The notes: generated by a model from the letters alone, not told the origin. Numbered from the stretch's first letter, positions 1-55,084 are shown. The stretch: 64,000 nucleotides of DNA from a virus (IMGVR_UViG_3300037466_003648:1-64000); one strand, 5' to 3'. Program-made: numbers and translations.

Positions 1-561
1 GACCGCGCGGAGAACAACTGGACCGAGAACGACTCCGTCGGCCTGTCCTACCAAGTGGAGGGTGACCTGGACGCCCAGCTCGATCGCGACGCCAAGGCGT
101 TCGCTGGCTGGTACGTCGAGCAGCACACCGCGCGGTTCGCCTCGCTGGGCAGCGCCAAGCGCTTCGCCCGGAGCGTGACCCGCGACGAGTCGCCCGCCCG
201 CATCCAGCGCAAGCGCGTCGACTACACGGTCGGCTTCGCGCCCTGCGCCACCTGGTCGCAGGGGCGCAGCTGGCGGCTGCACCGCTACGAGTTCGTGGTC
301 ACCTACACGACCCGCGTGTGCTACGCGGTCGAGGGCGACTACGACTTCGTGCCCGAAGAGCGCGTCGTCGAGTACGACTGCAGCGGTCCCGCGTACGTGG
401 AGGCGCCGCACTGGGACGTCGACTTCAGCTCCTACCCGGAGTGGGAGCCGATCGCCCACGCGCCTGCCGACTGGTCGGCCAGCTACCTGGCTGCGGGTCG
501 CGCGCACGTCAAGTGCGCCGCGCAGCACACCACGGGCGCCTGCACGGTGTGCGGGCGCTAA
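1..561 (+). CDS. hypothetical protein, 5'-truncated by the window edge
   Basis: Frame is open from base 1 to TAA at 559-561; high-GC3 codon usage like neighbouring genes. Confidence 0.7.
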   Translation, partial: DRAENNWTENDSVGLSYQVEGDLDAQLDRDAKAFAGWYVEQHTARFASLGSAKRFARSVTRDESPARIQRKRVDYTVGFAPCATWSQGRSWRLHRYEFVVTYTTRVCYAVEGDYDFVPEERVVEYDCSGPAYVEAPHWDVDFSSYPEWEPIAHAPADWSASYLAAGRAHVKCAAQHTTGACTVCGR

Positions 562-10691: not shown

Positions 10692-11252
10692 ATGACCACG
10701 CGTTCCACCCGCACCGCCAACACCGGCACCGAGATCGTCAAGGAGTCGGCCGAGAACATCGAGGCTGCCCCTGCCACCGACGGCCAGGTTGCCGCCACCG
10801 AGAAGGACGCCGAGAAGAAGGCGCCCGGCCCCAACGCCTACGTGGGCAACATCATGCACCTCAAGCGCGAGACCAAGTCCACCGGCAAGGCGTACGCCTT
10901 GGTGATGGTGCGCTTCGTCAACGGCCAGGAGATCGCGCAGAAGGCCGTGCAGGTCTTCCCGCGCACCGAAGGCTTCACCAGCCAGGTCGGCGACATGTTC
11001 GGCTTCGAGGCCAAGCGCCTCGTGGAAGCCTACGACAACGACGACAAGCCGATGAAGCTGGAGGACGGCACGCCCGTCTACCGCGCGTCCGGCGTGGGTC
11101 CCGAGCTGAAGCACTTCACGGTGCGGGCGACCGGCAAGGCCGCCAGCGTGGAGCCGACCGGCGAGATCAAGTCCAACGGCTTGCGCGAGCGCCTGGCGAA
11201 GGCGTCCCCGCTCATGGCCAAGTTCTTGGGTGTCAAGTTCGAGAACTCGTAA
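10692..11252 (+). CDS. hypothetical protein, possibly SSB/OB-fold-like
   Basis: SD GAAAGGAG; very strong codon bias; fold is a guess. Confidence 0.75.
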   Translation: MTTRSTRTANTGTEIVKESAENIEAAPATDGQVAATEKDAEKKAPGPNAYVGNIMHLKRETKSTGKAYALVMVRFVNGQEIAQKAVQVFPRTEGFTSQVGDMFGFEAKRLVEAYDNDDKPMKLEDGTPVYRASGVGPELKHFTVRATGKAASVEPTGEIKSNGLRERLAKASPLMAKFLGVKFENS

Positions 11253-11262
11253 GCTCCACCTT

Positions 11263-11292
11263 GAGTAGGGTCGTGGTAACATGACCCTACTC
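11263..11292 (+). terminator. 13-bp hairpin with GUAA tetraloop before the tRNA array
   Basis: GAGTAGGGTCGTG-GTAA-CATGACCCTACTC. Confidence 0.55.
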
Positions 11293-11302
11293 TCCTCTTC
11301 AA

Positions 11303-11374
11303 GCCTGGCGAGTCAGTGAGGAACGACATGCGGTTGAAACCCGCAGGGACCACGTTCGAGTCGTGGGCCAGGCA
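11303..11374 (+). tRNA. trnF: tRNA-Phe(GAA), CCA not encoded
   Basis: Acceptor GCCTGGC/GCCAGGC, D-stem GTC/GAC, anticodon arm TGCGG-TTGAAAC-CCGCA, T-arm CCACG-TTCGAGT-CGTGG; G instead of U at position 8. Confidence 0.8.
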
Positions 11375-11380
11375 CTAGAT

Positions 11381-11433
11381 CACTCTGTACCAACTAATCT
11401 CCTTCGGGAGGGCAGGTGGGCTCCTACAGAGTG
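11381..11433 (+). ncRNA. 53-nt long hairpin with cUUCGg apex between tRNAs
   Basis: CACTCTGTA/TACAGAGTG basal stem; TCTCC-TTCG-GGAGG apex. Confidence 0.45.
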
Positions 11434-11445
11434 GTCGACCTTCAT

Positions 11446-11521
11446 GGGTAGGTGGTCCAGTAAGCAGGACGCGAGTGTGAAAAGCTCGGGGCACCGTGTG
11501 CAATTCCGGTCCTACCCACCA
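11446..11521 (+). tRNA. atypical tRNA, anticodon GAA (Phe), with encoded CCA
   Basis: Acceptor GGGTAGG/CCTACCC-A-CCA, D-stem GTCC/GGAC, CGAGT-GTGAAAA-GCTCG; G32 and a non-canonical T-arm (ACCGTGTGCAATTCCGGT). Confidence 0.6.
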
Positions 11522-11524
11522 TTT

Positions 11525-11598
11525 CCTCGGGACGCCGAAGGTCGGCAGGCGCTACCAGAACATGCGCCCTCTAGGTGGTTCGATTCCATCCCCGAGGA
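11525..11598 (+). ncRNA. tRNA-like RNA with an expanded 11-nt anticodon loop
   Basis: Acceptor CCTCGGG/CCCGAGG-A, D-arm GCCG-AAGGT-CGGC, stem GGCGC/GCGCC around TACCAGAACAT, T-arm GGTGG-TTCGATT-CCATC. Confidence 0.65.
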
Positions 11599-11612
11599 CT
11601 TACACAACTCAC

Positions 11613-11783
11613 GGGCGTGTCAGCACCCTATCCGGCGGGTGCACCCGTGTCGTGACCCTAGCAGGATGACACCCTGCGAAGGTCTAAGCTACACTGTCCC
11701 AGGCGGTGTGAAAGCCGTGTTCTGGGGTGTTAACAGCGTAGTGATGGCACGGGAGGTGGCGGGTTCAAATCCCGTCGCGCCCA
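11613..11783 (+). ncRNA. tRNA-like RNA whose anticodon loop is replaced by a ~90-nt two-hairpin domain
   Basis: Acceptor GGGCGTG/CGCGCCC-A, 6-bp D-stem GCACCC/GGGTGC, 10-bp stem CCCGTGTCGT/ATGGCACGGG, variable AGGTG, T-arm GCGGG-TTCAAAT-CCCGT. Confidence 0.7.
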
Positions 11784-11792
11784 CCCCTTTCT

Positions 11793-11941
11793 CTGGAAGT
11801 AGCTCAGCGGTAGAGCACGCGCATTTCGCCCATAGCTCAGTGGTAGAGCGCACCCCAGTTAAGGGTGAGGTCCCCGGTTCGAATCCGGGTGGGCGAGCCA
11901 ACGGCGCGCGGGGCGGTGGTTCAAGTCCATCCTTCCAGACC
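11793..11941 (+). ncRNA. split (outer) tRNA body enclosing tRNA-Asn in its anticodon loop
   Basis: 5' half CTGGAAG-TA-GCTC-AGCGGTA-GAGC-A-CGCGC (11793-11822); 3' half GCGCG-GGGC-GGTGG-TTCAAGT-CCATC-CTTCCAG-A (11906-11939); all stems pair across the insert. Confidence 0.7.
11826..11900 (+). tRNA. trnN: tRNA-Asn(GTT) with encoded CCA; A instead of U at position 33
   Basis: Acceptor TCGCCCA/TGGGCGA-G-CCA, D-arm GCTC-AGTGGTA-GAGC, CACCC-CAGTTAA-GGGTG, T-arm CCCGG-TTCGAAT-CCGGG. Confidence 0.9.
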
Positions 11942-12051
11942 TTTTGAACCTTGGGGGTTGAGAGCCCCGAGCGTGCGGCTGCAGCGTCACGAAGCGGCAA
12001 GTCCGCTGGTCACCGAGATCTCTAGGTGGACCAGCACCAGGACGGCAACGG

Positions 12052-12093: not shown

Positions 12094-12247
12094 CGGGCGG
12101 CGCGCCATCGATACAGTCACGACCTGTGCCAGTGTCACCGGTGCAGCGATGGGCTTCTTTTGTGTGGCTTCGAGCCTTTAATGTGCTTCTAGCGTGCATC
12201 TACAGGCTCGATCCGTGTCAGAAGAGCCTTGTTGCTGCAGGGGTGGG

Positions 12248-42304: not shown

Positions 42305-42583
42305 ATGTCCTACCAACCGCCCCACAAGCGAGGTACCCACAGGTTCGACCGTCCCCGCTGCGTCGCGTGCAACGGTTCCGGTTATGCCGAGTTCCCACGC
42401 GCCGTCGAGCGGGTCGAGGTGATGTTGGGTGACAGTGGTCTCTCCGTCACGCGCACCGTCTACGAGGGCGTGCGTCAGATCGGCACGGGCGCCTACATCA
42501 AGTTCAGCGGCAAGCACGTCGCCGTGAAGAAGGTGGACGGCAAGTGGGTTACCGAAAACCCGGAAGAGGCGGTGGTCAGGTGA
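42305..42583 (+). CDS. hypothetical protein with CVACNGSG motif
   Basis: GCCGAAGGAG RBS. Confidence 0.65.
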
Positions 42584-43206
42584 GTCGCGCGTTCCTGAAC
42601 AACGAGATCTACATCAGCGTCGATGTCGAGACCGACGGCCCCATCCCCGGCCCCAACTCGATGTTGTCGCTGGGCGCCGCCGCGTATCGGATCGAGATCG
42701 TCAATGGCAAACTCGTGCCCGTGCTGCTGGACACCTTCAGCATGAACATCGAGCAGCTGTGGGATGCCAAGCCCGATCCCGAGACCGAAGCCTGGTGGAA
42801 GACCCAACCTGCTGCTTGGGAAGCTTGTCGCAAGGACCCACAGAAGCCTGGTGTCGTCATGAAGCTGTTCAGCCAGTGGGTCGAAGAGACCTCGAAGGAA
42901 GCTAATGCGAAGCCCGTCTTCGTGGGCTACCCTGCGGGCTTCGACTTCCTCTTCGTCTACTGGTACCTGATCCGCTTCGTGGGTAAGAGCCCCTTCTCGT
43001 TCTCCGCGCTGGACGTCAAGACGTTCGCCATGGCCGTGTTGGGCACCGAGTACCGCAACTCGACGAAGCGCAACATGCCCAAGGGATGGTTCCCCAAGGT
43101 CCGCCACAACCACATCGCGGTCGATGATGCCGTGGAGCAGGGCGAGTTGTTCTGCAACATGTTCATCGACAACTACCGCCGCCGTAAGCCCAACACGACC
43201 CTTTAG
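42580..43206 (+). CDS. DEDDh 3'-5' exo(ribo)nuclease (Rv2179c/RNase AS-like)
   Basis: SVDVETDGP (ExoI), AGFDF (ExoII), HIAVDDA (ExoIII). Confidence 0.85.
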
Positions 43207-44626: not shown

Positions 44627-45748
44627 ATGAGCACCGTCCGCACCACCATCGAGCGTCTGGTCAACGTCCGGCCGCACACCAACTCTGACAACCTGAACCT
44701 CGCCATCGTGCGTGGCTGGCAAATGGTCATGAACGACCGCAACGCGGAGAACCCGCGTAAGACCGGCGACCTGGTCGTTTACTTCGAGGCGGGCACCGTG
44801 CTTCCGTTGAAGTGGGCCGAGAAGTTCGAGGTCGTCAACTACCTCTCCAACAAGACGGACATCGAGGGCAACAAGGTCTTGGTGGTCGGCAAGGTCCGCT
44901 TGCGGGGCGAGCCCAGCTTCGGTCTCACGGTTCCCGTCGCCGAGGCGCTGGCCCTGATGGACGAGCCGGACACCGCGGTTCTGTTCGAGGGCGACGACGT
45001 GTCGCACCTCTTCGGCACCAGCAAGTACCGGCCGCCGGTCAAGGCGAGCGCGGGTGACGCCGAGGAGGATCACCCGCACTTCCAGCCCTACACCGACATC
45101 GAGAACCTGCGCAACTTCCCCAACATCATCGAGGAAGGCGAAGAGGTCACCTACCGCGAGAAGCTGCACGGCACGAACTGTCGCGTGGGCTTCGTGCGCT
45201 GTGACGAAGATCCCAACTGCATCGTCCGCATGGCGGGCTCGCGCGAACTGCGGCGCAAGGCGCCCAAGACCGACGACGAGATGGCCGCCAACACCTACTG
45301 GTTCCCGTGGACGCTGGAGTCGGTCAGCTTGATGCTCAGCCACCTGGGTATTCAAGGTAACCAGAGCGCGACGCTGTACGGTGAGGTCTACGGTGGTGGC
45401 GTCCAGAAGGGCTTCGACTACGGCCACAAGCGTCCGCAGTTCCGCGCCTTTGACCTGTCGGTCAACGGCAAGTACCTGGACGATCCCGAGTTCGAGGCGC
45501 TGTGCCAGGAGTTCGGTATCGAGGTGGCGCCGCTCGCGTACCGCGGTCCCCACAACATGGCCAAGCTCAAGGAGCTGGCTGAAGGCAAGACGGCCATCGA
45601 GGGTGCCACGCATATCAGCGAGGGCATCGTCGTAACCCCCACCAAGGAGCGTGTCCACCCGCAGGTGGGTCGCGTGATCCTCAAGTACGTGTCGGATGCC
45701 TACCTCTTCCGCAAGGGCGGGGATGACGACGACACGACCGACGTGTAA
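44627..45748 (+). CDS. ATP-dependent RNA ligase, DRB0094/Rnl2-type
   Basis: N-terminal HTNSDNLNLAIVRGWQ and GDLVVYFE; ligase motifs EKLHGTN (I), YGEVYG (III), FRAFDL (IIIa), EGIVV (IV), ILKYVS (V). Confidence 0.88.
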   Translation: MSTVRTTIERLVNVRPHTNSDNLNLAIVRGWQMVMNDRNAENPRKTGDLVVYFEAGTVLPLKWAEKFEVVNYLSNKTDIEGNKVLVVGKVRLRGEPSFGLTVPVAEALALMDEPDTAVLFEGDDVSHLFGTSKYRPPVKASAGDAEEDHPHFQPYTDIENLRNFPNIIEEGEEVTYREKLHGTNCRVGFVRCDEDPNCIVRMAGSRELRRKAPKTDDEMAANTYWFPWTLESVSLMLSHLGIQGNQSATLYGEVYGGGVQKGFDYGHKRPQFRAFDLSVNGKYLDDPEFEALCQEFGIEVAPLAYRGPHNMAKLKELAEGKTAIEGATHISEGIVVTPTKERVHPQVGRVILKYVSDAYLFRKGGDDDDTTDV

Positions 45749-54490: not shown

Positions 54491-55084
54491 ATGACCCAAC
54501 CCATCGAGTCCGAGCTGTACCTGCTCGTCGGCCCCAGTGGTGCCGGTAAGACGTCCGTGATGGACGAGTTGTACCGCGAGGGCACCCTGATCAAGGCGAC
54601 CTCTCACGCCACGCGCCCCATGCGGGAAGGCGAGTCCCAGGGCAACCCGTACCACTTCATCTCGGTGAACGAGTACAAGGGGTTGGATCTCGAAGGCCAG
54701 TTCATCGAGAAGATCGAGTACAACGGCAACCACTACGGCTTCACCCGCGGCGAAGTGCTGAACGCGTTGGAGCGGGGTGACGTTGGTCTGATCGTCGAGG
54801 GTCACGGTGCGGCGCAAATTCGCAAGCTCTTCCCCGGCCGGGTCACCACCATCTTCCTGGACCCGCCACCCCGCGAAGAGCTGGTGCGTCGGATGCGTCA
54901 GCGCAAGAACACCCAGGCGGAGATCGAAGAGCGTCTAGCGCTCATGGTGGACGAGATGAAGTTCGGTCCCGAGGCCGACTACCACGTCGACACCAACGAC
55001 TCGTTCGACCACGTTCTTACCAAGGTGCGCACGATCATCAAGATCACCCGTGCTCGCCGTCAGAACAAGGCGGAGGGTCTGTAA
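54491..55084 (+). CDS. gmk: guanylate kinase
   Basis: GPSGAGKTS P-loop; SHATRPMREGESQGNPYHFIS; YNGNHYG. Confidence 0.9.
   Translation: MTQPIESELYLLVGPSGAGKTSVMDELYREGTLIKATSHATRPMREGESQGNPYHFISVNEYKGLDLEGQFIEKIEYNGNHYGFTRGEVLNALERGDVGLIVEGHGAAQIRKLFPGRVTTIFLDPPPREELVRRMRQRKNTQAEIEERLALMVDEMKFGPEADYHVDTNDSFDHVLTKVRTIIKITRARRQNKAEGL

What the first reader, a model, noticed from the sequence alone, without database searches (positions are those of the whole stretch)
11525..11598. tRNA-like RNA with an 11-nt anticodon loop
Seen: perfect acceptor, D, anticodon and T stems, but the loop is TACCAGAACAT (11 nt). It contains CCA but lacks the YU-anticodon-R geometry. Inference: it cannot decode normally, so it may be a decoy for anticodon nucleases or uncharged-tRNA sensors, a frameshift suppressor, or a precursor trimmed and religated to a 7-nt loop.
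Basis: partly seen in the sequence, partly recalled or inferred. Interest (0 to 1): 0.6.

Follow-up and report, generated by a model that had tools for sequence, protein, structure and literature searches.

The report
Phage tRNA-Phe mimic with oversized loop
A 205-kb soil phage carries a well-folded relative of its own phenylalanine tRNA whose anticodon loop has 11 bases instead of 7, so it almost certainly cannot read codons and looks more like a kept tRNA mimic than a decaying gene, but its job is untested.

Summary
Window 11525-11598 (+) folds as a cloverleaf (7/4/5/5-bp stems, one G-U, T loop TTCGATT, GG in the D loop) with a fully unpaired 11-nt loop, TACCAGAACAT. Independent metagenome assemblies carry the same loop, so it is not an assembly artefact. 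No 7-nt frame of the loop has U33. ARAGORN and the Rfam tRNA model both reject the element.

Its nearest relative is the phage's own canonical tRNA-Phe(GAA): 70% identity over 53 structural positions, 3.2 SD above the genome's other tRNAs. Every stem difference from that tRNA keeps pairing, and GAA and A73 are retained.

It is the third of six aberrant tRNA-shaped genes in one array downstream of a conserved OB-fold gene. Three related phage contigs carry Phe-type (GAA) tRNA-like genes at the same place. Two of them have loops reading CTGAACA; the target holds CAGAACA. None of the three has an orthologue of this element.

Best reading (0.4): a selected, non-decoding tRNA-Phe mimic or decoy. 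Main rival (0.25): a young, functionless paralogue. Frameshift suppression and trim-and-religate are unlikely.

This scan had already noted the neighbouring elements on this same DNA. I rate it a new variant of a known kind, interest 0.45.

The parts
11525..11598 (+). The tRNA-Phe-derived tRNA-like gene, from acceptor 5' end to discriminator A
   Evidence: Sequence; MFE cloverleaf; minihelix scan; identical in independent assemblies
11553..11563 (+). 11-nt loop TACCAGAACAT. It contains GAA (11558-11560) within CAGAACA, and ACCA (11554-11557)
   Evidence: At least 97.8% unpaired per base; matches 6 of 7 bases of the CTGAACA loops of related phages
11548..11568 (+). Anticodon arm: stem GGCGC/GCGCC closing the 11-nt loop
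   Evidence: the 5' strand with A26 (AGGCGC) is identical to the main-array tRNA-Phe
11574..11598 (+). T arm (GGTGG-TTCGATT-CCATC), acceptor 3' strand and discriminator A: an intact 'top half'
   Evidence: same T stem as the outer nested element 11793-11939
11534..11546 (+). D arm GCCG-AAGGT-CGGC, a shrunken D loop with GG. It is preceded by A8 C9 (11532-11533). The only strain polymorphism in the element is at 11539 (A/T)
11303..11375 (+). Array member 1: tRNA-Phe(GAA), loop TTGAAAC
   Evidence: ARAGORN; orthologues in L003 and L010
11446..11521 (+). Array member 2: tRNA-Phe(GAA)-like with G32 (loop GTGAAAA) and encoded CCA. It ends 3 nt before the target
   Evidence: Rfam tRNA 43.9 bits; ARAGORN relaxed settings
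11613..11784 (+). Array member 4: ~171-nt tRNA-shaped RNA with a large insert in place of the anticodon loop
11793..11939 (+). Array members 5 and 6: an outer tRNA-shaped gene with a whole tRNA-Asn(GTT)+CCA (11826-11900) inside its anticodon loop
11263..11292 (+). 13-bp hairpin with a GUAA loop between the upstream gene and the array. A hairpin sits at the same place in L003, L010 and L011
12053..12094 (+). Terminator-like hairpin plus T run that closes the array. It is followed by a motif conserved in relatives: GGCGGCGCGC-N3-CGATACAGTCACGA
   Evidence: The simple terminator scan did not list it because its loop exceeds 8 nt
10692..11252 (+). Conserved 186-aa OB-fold protein gene directly upstream of the array
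   Evidence: Homologues; model with pLDDT 77; OB-fold matches with Z up to 7.7 to class IIb aaRS anticodon-binding domains, SSB, RPA and PriB

Best explanation
The element is a paralogue of the phage's phenylalanine tRNA. It has kept a tRNA's 'top half' (acceptor stem, T arm, GG of the D loop, discriminator A73) and all four stems. It has lost the ability to decode: the anticodon loop grew from 7 to 11 nt, U33 and purine-37 are gone, U8 became A, and the D loop shrank.

Inferred steps, none of them shown. It is transcribed with the five other aberrant tRNA-shaped genes as one array, downstream of the OB-fold gene. Host RNase P and 3' processing enzymes cut it out, since they need only the acceptor/T minihelix. 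It accumulates as a stable tRNA-shaped RNA that displays GAA in an open loop. In that form it acts as a mimic of tRNA-Phe: a decoy or competitive binder for a factor that recognises the tRNA-Phe anticodon arm. The most likely such factor is a host tRNA-cutting defence enzyme.

What is shown: the fold, the Phe ancestry, the intact stems, the array context, and the failure to meet decoding requirements. What is inferred: expression, processing and the target of the mimicry.
For: 1. The element is real and reproducible. L002 and the Logan contigs carry the same loop.

2. The stable cloverleaf has a fully open loop, both alone and in the array context.

3. It fails decoding requirements. The loop has 11 nt with no U33 frame. 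ARAGORN and Rfam tRNA reject it. With a 7-nt loop substituted in silico, ARAGORN's default settings call it only if A8 or the D loop is also changed, although it is then called at a relaxed threshold.

4. It has Phe ancestry and a maintained fold. Core identity to the main-array tRNA-Phe(GAA) at genome 86614 is 70%, against a mean of 45% (sd 7.5) for 42 other tRNA or tRNA-like genes. Of the 21 stem pairs, 14 are the same, 6 changed on both sides and still pair, 1 went from G-T to G-C, and none is broken. GAA and A73 are retained.

5. The lineage context points to Phe. The related contigs L003, L010 and L011 (upstream protein 45-50% identical) carry GAA tRNA-like genes right after the same gene. 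L010 and L011 have loops reading CTGAACA, set in 9-nt loops in L011, plus hairpins inserted in D loops. The target loop holds CAGAACA, a 6-of-7 match. By my own estimate the chance of that is about 0.007 for five frames.

6. A decoder is redundant. The phage has a full array of 32 normal tRNAs, including tRNA-Phe.

7. tRNA damage is a plausible selective pressure. The phage encodes an RNA ligase (PF09414 plus the PHA02142 OB domain) and an Rv2179c-like exoribonuclease.

8. There is published precedent. Phage tRNAs are proposed, and in some cases shown, to counter host tRNA nucleases through anticodon-loop changes (PMC10264068; PMC11555353, seen only as a title and abstract). A tRNA-Phe-specific antiviral anticodon nuclease exists in humans, SAMD9 (PMC10246899). 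A bacterial Schlafen cleaves anticodon arms, tRNA-Phe(GAA) among them (PMC13056530).
Against: - No orthologue of this particular element was found in any relative. L003 ends before the position; L010 and L011 have only two members. Selection on the 11-nt loop itself is therefore not demonstrated.
- The strains that carry the element are under 1% diverged and say nothing about constraint.
- There are no expression or processing data.
- The host is unknown, and I know of no bacterial nuclease specific for tRNA-Phe.
- A8 and the 5-nt D loop may weaken the L-shape that a good mimic would need.
- Intact stems could simply reflect youth.
Confidence: 0.4

Rival explanations
1. A young, functionless paralogue. 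A duplicated tRNA-Phe gene suffered loop insertions plus changes at position 8 and in the D loop, and it has not yet had time to decay further. The array gains and loses members quickly, and this one is a passenger.
For: The element is lineage-specific. L010 and L011 have two members each, L003 has a different sequence after member 1, and more distant relatives (L012, L013) have no array. It carries several departures from tRNA consensus at once. tRNA finders do not recognise it.
Against: Its closest paralogue is only 70% identical in the structural core, yet none of its 21 stem pairs is broken and six changed on both sides. That is not what drift does. GAA, A73, the T loop and the GG of the D loop are all intact. 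All damage sits in the decoding half. Its neighbours in the array show the same pattern of intact bodies with remodelled anticodon regions, which looks like a theme rather than an accident.
Confidence: 0.25
2. A processing or stability module. The cloverleaf serves only as an RNase P / RNase Z recognition site, or as a folded spacer that punctuates the polycistronic array or protects the upstream mRNA. The loop content is irrelevant.
For: The elements are packed tightly head to tail: the target starts 3 nt after the CCA of member 2, with U at position -1. The acceptor/T minihelix is intact while the anticodon half is free to vary. The array is bounded by a conserved hairpin and a terminator.
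Against: Retention of GAA and the CNGAACA-like motif is not explained. The flanking tRNA-like genes bring their own processing sites, so an extra cloverleaf is not needed for punctuation.
Confidence: 0.12
3. A chargeable but non-ribosomal tRNA-Phe. PheRS still recognises GAA and A73 and aminoacylates it. The Phe-RNA then either feeds a non-ribosomal transfer reaction or ties up PheRS or phenylalanine.
For: The main PheRS identity elements are the GAA anticodon and A73 (my recollection of the aaRS literature). Both are kept, while the features needed for ribosomal decoding are lost. The top half needed for CCA addition and EF-Tu binding is intact.
Against: GAA sits in an 11-nt loop with a different geometry. 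No aa-tRNA-dependent transferase, PheRS or CCA-adding enzyme was found in the phage: PF01409 and PF01743 are absent. There is no direct evidence.
Confidence: 0.08
4. A real decoder of extended codons: a frameshift suppressor reading four or more bases, for example through a weak extra U-A pair that narrows the loop to 8 nt.
For: Enlarged anticodon loops are the hallmark of natural +1 suppressors (PMC9094753). Possible A2-U11 or U1-A10 closing pairs exist.
Against: Those closing pairs have only 1.5-2% probability. No frame has U33. From memory, Anderson et al. 2002 (the reference is confirmed) found decoding limited to loops of about 8-10 nt and codons of 3-5 bases. No programmed-frameshift target was identified.
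Confidence: 0.03
5. A precursor whose loop is cut, trimmed by 4 nt and religated to a normal 7-nt loop by the phage RNA ligase and exonuclease.
For: The same window encodes an RNA ligase and a 3'-5' exoribonuclease.
Against: No removal of 4, 3 or 2 consecutive bases yields a loop that ARAGORN accepts, and none yields a U33-NNN-R37 arrangement. There is no bulge-helix-bulge or group I intron feature. No such editing pathway is known. The ligase lies 33 kb away.
Confidence: 0.03

Closest known systems
Phage-encoded tRNAs with anticodon-loop substitutions that escape host anticodon nucleases (van den Berg et al. 2023, PMC10264068; Azam et al. 2024, PMC11555353)
   Same: It is phage-encoded and derived from a normal isoacceptor. 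The changes are concentrated in the anticodon loop. It sits in a tRNA-rich large phage that also carries an RNA ligase.
   Different: Those tRNAs keep a 7-nt loop and still decode. They replace cleaved host tRNAs. This element has an 11-nt loop without U33 or R37 and cannot plausibly decode, so it could act only as a mimic or decoy, a role not described there.
Natural and engineered +1 frameshift-suppressor tRNAs with enlarged loops (sufD-type; DeBenedictis et al. 2022, PMC9094753; Anderson et al. 2002)
   Same: An otherwise normal cloverleaf with extra bases in the anticodon loop.
   Different: The suppressors have 8 nt, at most about 10 in selections, and keep the U-turn and a purine 3' of the anticodon. 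Here there are 11 nt and neither feature.
Odd insertions in tRNA genes of Lak megaphages ('enigmatic introns', one holding a tRNA; Devoto et al. 2019, PMC6784885)
   Same: tRNA genes of a very large phage with unexplained extra sequence at the anticodon loop. The same array here also holds a tRNA nested inside a tRNA.
   Different: The Lak inserts are tens of bases long and are treated as introns of otherwise typable tRNAs. Here there are only 4 extra bases, no excision that gives a canonical loop, and an unrelated phage lineage.
Non-decoding tRNA-shaped RNAs encoded beside real tRNAs: T4 stable RNAs species 1 and 2, murid herpesvirus 68 vtRNAs, Bacillus cereus tRNA-Other (from memory, not checked here)
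   Same: tRNA-like fold, location within a tRNA gene cluster, and likely maturation by tRNA-processing enzymes without a role in decoding.
   Different: There is no sequence relationship. Their functions are unknown or different (miRNA precursors, regulation). None is described with an 11-nt GAA-bearing loop.

Membership tests
Canonical elongator tRNA (Rfam RF00005) | Cloverleaf with a 7-bp acceptor stem, 3-4-bp D stem, 5-bp anticodon stem and 5-bp T stem | tested here: met
   The MFE structure is exactly this
Canonical elongator tRNA (Rfam RF00005) | T loop TTCRANY and GG in the D loop for the elbow | tested here: met
   TTCGATT and AAGGT are read directly; minihelix scan
Canonical elongator tRNA (Rfam RF00005) | 7-nt anticodon loop with U33 and purine 37 | tested here: not met
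   The loop has 11 nt and is fully unpaired. No 7-nt frame has U33. The GAA frame has A33 and C37.
Canonical elongator tRNA (Rfam RF00005) | U8 and a D loop of normal size (7-11 nt) | tested here: not met
   A8 and a 5-nt D loop. With a normal 7-nt loop substituted, ARAGORN's default settings call the element only after A8>T or after adding 2 nt to the D loop.
Canonical elongator tRNA (Rfam RF00005) | Score above the family's gathering threshold, or detection by ARAGORN | tested here: not met
   No RF00005 hit even at E <= 10; the only hit is tRNA-Sec at 17.8 bits, E = 3.8. ARAGORN finds nothing with default, relaxed or intron settings.
tRNA-Phe lineage (descent, not function) | Closest to tRNA-Phe in structure-aligned sequence; GAA in the loop; discriminator A73 | tested here: met
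   70% core identity to the main tRNA-Phe, 3.2 SD above the other tRNAs. GAA lies at 11558-11560 and A at 11598.
+1 frameshift-suppressor tRNA | 8-nt loop (rarely 9-10) with a U-turn and an extended anticodon | tested here: not met
   The loop has 11 nt. Pairs that would narrow it have at most 2% probability. There is no U33.
Intron-containing tRNA (group I or bulge-helix-bulge) | An excisable insert that leaves a canonical 7-nt loop, with a ribozyme or BHB motif | tested here: not met
   There are only 4 extra bases. No deletion of 2-4 nt gives a tRNA that ARAGORN calls. ARAGORN's intron mode finds nothing.
tmRNA tRNA-like domain | G3-U70 alanine identity pair, no anticodon arm, a tag reading frame | tested here: not met
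   Pair 3-70 is T-A and a full anticodon arm is present. Rfam tmRNA gives no hit here.
Nuclease-resistant phage tRNAs (van den Berg 2023) | A phage tRNA whose anticodon loop differs from the canonical isoacceptor | tested here: met
   Compared with the phage's own tRNA-Phe loop CTGAAAA
Nuclease-resistant phage tRNAs (van den Berg 2023) | Still able to decode and so replace the cleaved host tRNA | tested here: not met
   It fails the structural requirements for decoding. Function itself cannot be tested with these tools.
Decoy or mimic of tRNA-Phe (proposed working mode, not a curated family) | A stable processed RNA in infected cells that binds or is cut by a tRNA-Phe-directed factor | not testable with these tools
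   No RNA run holding the locus is listed. The host and the factor are unknown.

The most novel reading that the evidence does not exclude
The array is a dedicated anti-defence RNA locus, with this element as its most extreme Phe-type member. It would be a set of tRNA-Phe-derived decoys that present GAA in enlarged, nuclease-accessible or nuclease-trapping loops. Here GAA sits next to ACCA, the sequence of the tRNA-Phe 3' end. The decoys would soak up a bacterial tRNA-Phe-directed or tRNA-tail-directed immune nuclease, possibly together with the OB-fold protein encoded directly upstream. That would be the first RNA-decoy counter-defence built from a tRNA, and it would imply a bacterial counterpart of Phe-specific anticodon nucleases such as human SAMD9.
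Probability: 0.12. Interest if true: 0.8.

Novelty: new variant of a known kind. Interest (0 to 1): 0.45.

Why it matters
Phage tRNAs are currently seen either as codon supplements or as nuclease-resistant replacements for host tRNAs. A phage gene that keeps everything a tRNA needs to be processed and recognised, yet has clearly given up decoding, points to a third use: tRNA mimicry. It sits in an array whose members all have remodelled anticodon regions, and relatives keep Phe-type members at the same place.

If the mimic is a decoy for a tRNA-directed defence, the array would be a handle for finding that defence in soil bacteria. It would also be a natural example of how far the anticodon arm can be remodelled while the rest of the tRNA stays intact.

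If it is only a young dead paralogue, it still shows how fast such arrays turn over.

Tried and rejected
**Searches for relatives**
- The phages collection gave nothing near. In distant mode only the tRNA-Asn and neighbouring parts matched generic tRNAs, and nothing matched the target.
- tblastn of the RNA polymerase subunit and of the OB-fold protein against phages found nothing.
- IMG/VR scans found nothing: two proteins, one protein alignment and three DNA patterns.
- The metagenome scan gave two loci, both cut off before the array.
- The 3' half of the element has no exact match in 185,579 prokaryote genomes, so no parent host tRNA was identified.
- The word-based protein search found the upstream protein only as itself. 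The exhaustive profile search gave 15 relatives.
- Contigs for P0024 and P0025 lack the array. The contig for P0035 and four Logan contigs could not be read because the sample files were too large.

**Expression**
- No RNA holder is listed among the sequencing runs.

**Antisense idea**
- The loop's complement, ATGTTCTGGTA, has no exact site in the phage apart from the loop's own opposite strand. It has 4 one-mismatch sites where about 3 are expected, and none is at a gene start.
- The loop's 8-nt complementarity to 11717-11724 is not used in the predicted array fold.

**Other checks**
- The apparent similarity of L003 17240-17260 to the loop is not in a tRNA-like fold and was dismissed.
- A MAFFT alignment of the family misplaced the target, so I used structural positions taken from the files instead.
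- The 'direct terminal repeat' is only 127 bp, so the element's position relative to a genome end means nothing.
- L002 is 0.2-0.8% diverged from the window, too little to test constraint.
- The 194-aa ORF across the array (11363-11947) was dismissed as spurious. It overlaps bona fide tRNA genes, and L010 and L011 have no gene called there.
- PF13671 gave only a sub-threshold P-loop hit at 54515.
- Complex prediction was not used, because the partner is an RNA.

Full report
**What is there.** The window is the first 64 kb of a 205,180-bp virus record from soil and rhizosphere metagenomes. At 11525-11598 (+) the sequence reads: acceptor CCTCGGG, then AC, D arm GCCG-AAGGT-CGGC, A, anticodon stem GGCGC, loop TACCAGAACAT, GCGCC, variable CTCTA, T arm GGTGG-TTCGATT-CCATC, acceptor CCCGAGG, discriminator A. 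RNAfold returns exactly this cloverleaf as the minimum-energy and centroid structure: -34.7 kcal/mol, 65% of the ensemble, z = -3.16. Each of the 11 loop bases is at least 97.8% unpaired. Both the cloverleaf and the open loop survive folding of the whole 848-nt intergenic array. A simple scan for a 5-bp T stem, a TTCRA-type loop and a 7-bp acceptor finds the element among the genome's tRNAs. Shuffled genomes give 0-3 such hits.

**Not an artefact.** A JGI contig from another assembly (L002) is identical across the element except for 11539 A>T in the D loop. Logan contigs of other soil and rhizosphere runs (X5, X6) cover 11240-11943 with five substitutions and no indels, and X8 contigs are identical. 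The loop length is therefore a property of the phage population.

**Not a working decoder.** ARAGORN does not call it with default, relaxed or intron settings, and the Rfam tRNA model gives no hit even at E <= 10. None of the five 7-nt frames of the loop has U33, and the frame centred on GAA has A33 and C37. Removing any 2-4 consecutive loop bases does not produce a gene that ARAGORN calls. With the phage's own tRNA-Phe loop substituted in silico, ARAGORN's default settings call it only if A8 is changed to T or the D loop is lengthened, although a relaxed threshold does call it. So the body is also off-consensus. Known frameshift-suppressor tRNAs have 8-nt loops (PMC9094753). From memory, selections reach about 10 nt and 5-base codons (Anderson et al. 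2002).

**Where it comes from.** I compared 53 structure-defined positions (stems, positions 8, 9 and 26, the T loop, the discriminator) with every tRNA of the genome and with the array members of relatives. The best match is the phage's own canonical tRNA-Phe(GAA) at genome 86614, at 70%. The mean over 42 comparisons is 45% (sd 7.5). Next comes the outer shell of the nested element at 11793-11939, at 62%, with the same T stem. Against tRNA-Phe, 14 of the 21 stem pairs are unchanged, six changed on both sides and still pair, one went from G-T to G-C, and none is broken. The loop contains GAA and the discriminator is A, as in tRNA-Phe. The element is therefore a tRNA-Phe relative whose helices have been kept while its decoding parts were remodelled. 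That is hard to reconcile with simple decay, although it cannot exclude a young copy.

**Context in this phage.** The element is the third of six tRNA-shaped genes packed into 11303-11939:
- tRNA-Phe(GAA);
- a second GAA tRNA with G32;
- this element;
- a 171-nt tRNA-shaped RNA with a large insert in place of the anticodon loop;
- an outer tRNA shape with a complete tRNA-Asn inside its anticodon loop (these last two count as members 5 and 6).

A 13-bp hairpin precedes the array and a terminator-like hairpin with a T run follows it. The phage also has a separate, normal array of 32 tRNAs at 83958-87783, including tRNA-Phe, so no extra decoder is needed. The window encodes an RNA ligase (PF09414 plus the PHA02142 OB domain) and an Rv2179c-like 3'-5' exoribonuclease. 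No CCA-adding enzyme or PheRS was found.

**The upstream gene.** Gene 10692-11252 encodes a conserved 186-aa protein. Its model (pLDDT 77) has an OB fold. The matches are middling (Z up to 7.7) and include the anticodon-binding domains of class IIb aminoacyl-tRNA synthetases, SSB, RPA and PriB. This shows a nucleic-acid-binding fold and nothing more specific.

**Relatives.** No cultured phage or IMG/VR record is related. An exhaustive profile search with the upstream protein found 15 relatives, and their contigs were informative:
- L003 (protein 50% identical) has an orthologue of array member 1 with compensatory stem changes, then unrelated sequence, and the contig ends before the target's position.
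- L010 and L011 (45-48% identical) each have a roughly 650-nt gene-free gap at the same place. Each gap holds two tRNA-shaped genes, a similar terminator and the same downstream motif.
- All four of those genes have A73, a 4-nt variable loop and the loop sequence CTGAACA. That is GAA followed by a pyrimidine at position 37. In L011 it sits in 9-nt loops closed by 4-bp stems, and three of the four genes carry hairpins or extra bases in the D loop.
- More distant relatives (L012, L013) have the protein but no array.

So a Phe-type, anticodon-remodelled tRNA-like array is a feature of this sub-lineage. Its membership turns over, and no orthologue of the 11-nt-loop member was found. The target's loop holds CAGAACA, six of seven bases of the relatives' motif. 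By my own estimate the chance of that is about 0.007 for five frames.

**How it most likely works.** Shown: the fold, the Phe ancestry, the intact top half, the loss of decoding features, and the array context. Inferred: the array is transcribed as one unit, and host RNase P and 3' processing enzymes, which need only the acceptor/T minihelix (established tRNA biology), release a stable tRNA-shaped RNA. That RNA cannot enter decoding but still displays tRNA-Phe features. I think the most likely role is a mimic or decoy for a factor that recognises the tRNA-Phe anticodon arm, most plausibly a host tRNA-cutting defence.

The published background supports the general idea. Phage tRNAs are proposed, and in some cases shown, to counter anticodon nucleases (PMC10264068; PMC11555353, seen only as a title and abstract). 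A Phe-specific antiviral anticodon nuclease exists in humans (PMC10246899). A bacterial Schlafen cuts anticodon arms, including that of tRNA-Phe(GAA) (PMC13056530).

I give this reading 0.4. The rivals are:
- a young, functionless paralogue (0.25);
- a processing or stability module (0.12);
- a chargeable non-ribosomal tRNA-Phe (0.08);
- an extended-codon decoder (0.03);
- a trim-and-religate precursor (0.03).

**Comparison with what is known.** The element is not a member of the canonical tRNA family: loop size, U33/R37, U8 and model scores were all tested and not met. It is also not a suppressor tRNA, an intron-bearing tRNA or a tmRNA domain. It works most like, but is not the same as, the nuclease-resistant phage tRNAs. 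It resembles the unexplained non-decoding RNAs found in other viral tRNA clusters, and the odd tRNA inserts of Lak megaphages (PMC6784885). I rate it a new variant of a known kind. The neighbouring elements of the same array had already been noted by this scan on this same DNA. I reached the nested and long-insert elements independently, and I used the earlier notes only as leads to the RNA ligase and the Lak paper.

Noticed in passing
L016:1521-1602 (genome 85320-85401, outside the window): An 82-nt element inside the main tRNA array starts GGGGGTA and ends TACCTCCACCA. It has a G3-T70 pair (the alanine identity pair) and an encoded CCA. Rfam's tmRNA model matches end to end at 43.2 bits (threshold 47) with the whole middle missing. 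It looks like a bare tmRNA tRNA-like domain or a mini tRNA-Ala mimic.
   Followed up: partly
L016:2473-2620 (genome about 86272-86420): The 5' half of a tRNA-Ile(GAT)-like gene with a normal anticodon arm (loop CTGATAA) is followed by a long hairpin insert. Rfam tRNA scores only 24.5 bits. This is another aberrant tRNA-like gene, this time in the main array.
   Followed up: no
window 10692-11252: A conserved 186-aa protein is encoded directly upstream of the array. It has a disordered N terminus, an OB-fold core (residues 46-148) and C-terminal helices. Structural matches have Z up to 7.7 to class IIb aaRS anticodon-binding domains, SSB, RPA and PriB. The genome has no Pfam SSB (PF00436), so this may be the phage's SSB, or an RNA-loop binder.
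   Followed up: partly
L010:1996-2216 and L011:1157-1338: The tRNA-like genes of related phages all have the loop CTGAACA (GAA with C at position 37) and 4-nt variable loops. Three of the four carry hairpins or extra bases inside the D loop. In L011 the loops have 9 nt on 4-bp stems. A pyrimidine at position 37 is very unusual for any tRNA.
   Followed up: partly
window 11553-11563 and 11717-11724: The loop's CCAGAACA is perfectly complementary to TGTTCTGG in the next array member. About 0.05 such matches are expected by chance in the array. The predicted fold does not use this pairing.
   Followed up: partly
window 11554-11560: The loop reads ACCA immediately followed by GAA. That is the sequence of the tRNA-Phe 3' end (A73-CCA) next to its anticodon. 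Its reverse complement reads AUG-UUC-UGG. This is probably coincidence and remains unexplained.
   Followed up: partly
window 12097-12127; L010:2382-2412; L011:1534-1564: A motif GGCGGCGCGC-N3-CGATACAGTCACGA directly after the array's terminator is conserved between phages whose neighbouring protein is only 45-48% identical. Its function is unknown.
   Followed up: no
window 11943 onward: In the strains of runs X5 and X6 the sequence matches the window through the whole array (5 SNPs) and then diverges abruptly at about 11943, just after the nested element. Gene calls in those contigs imply a spacing about 26 nt shorter. This looks like a recombination or replacement boundary at the array's end.
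   Followed up: partly
window 44627-45748 and 42544-43206: An RNA ligase (PF09414 plus the PHA02142 OB domain) and an Rv2179c-like 3'-5' exoribonuclease were confirmed by Pfam. No clear polynucleotide kinase was found; there is only a sub-threshold P-loop hit at 54515.
   Followed up: partly
genome ends (window 1-127): The record's 'direct terminal repeat' is an exact 127-bp overlap. That fits a circular or circularly permuted assembly better than long physical terminal repeats.
   Followed up: yes
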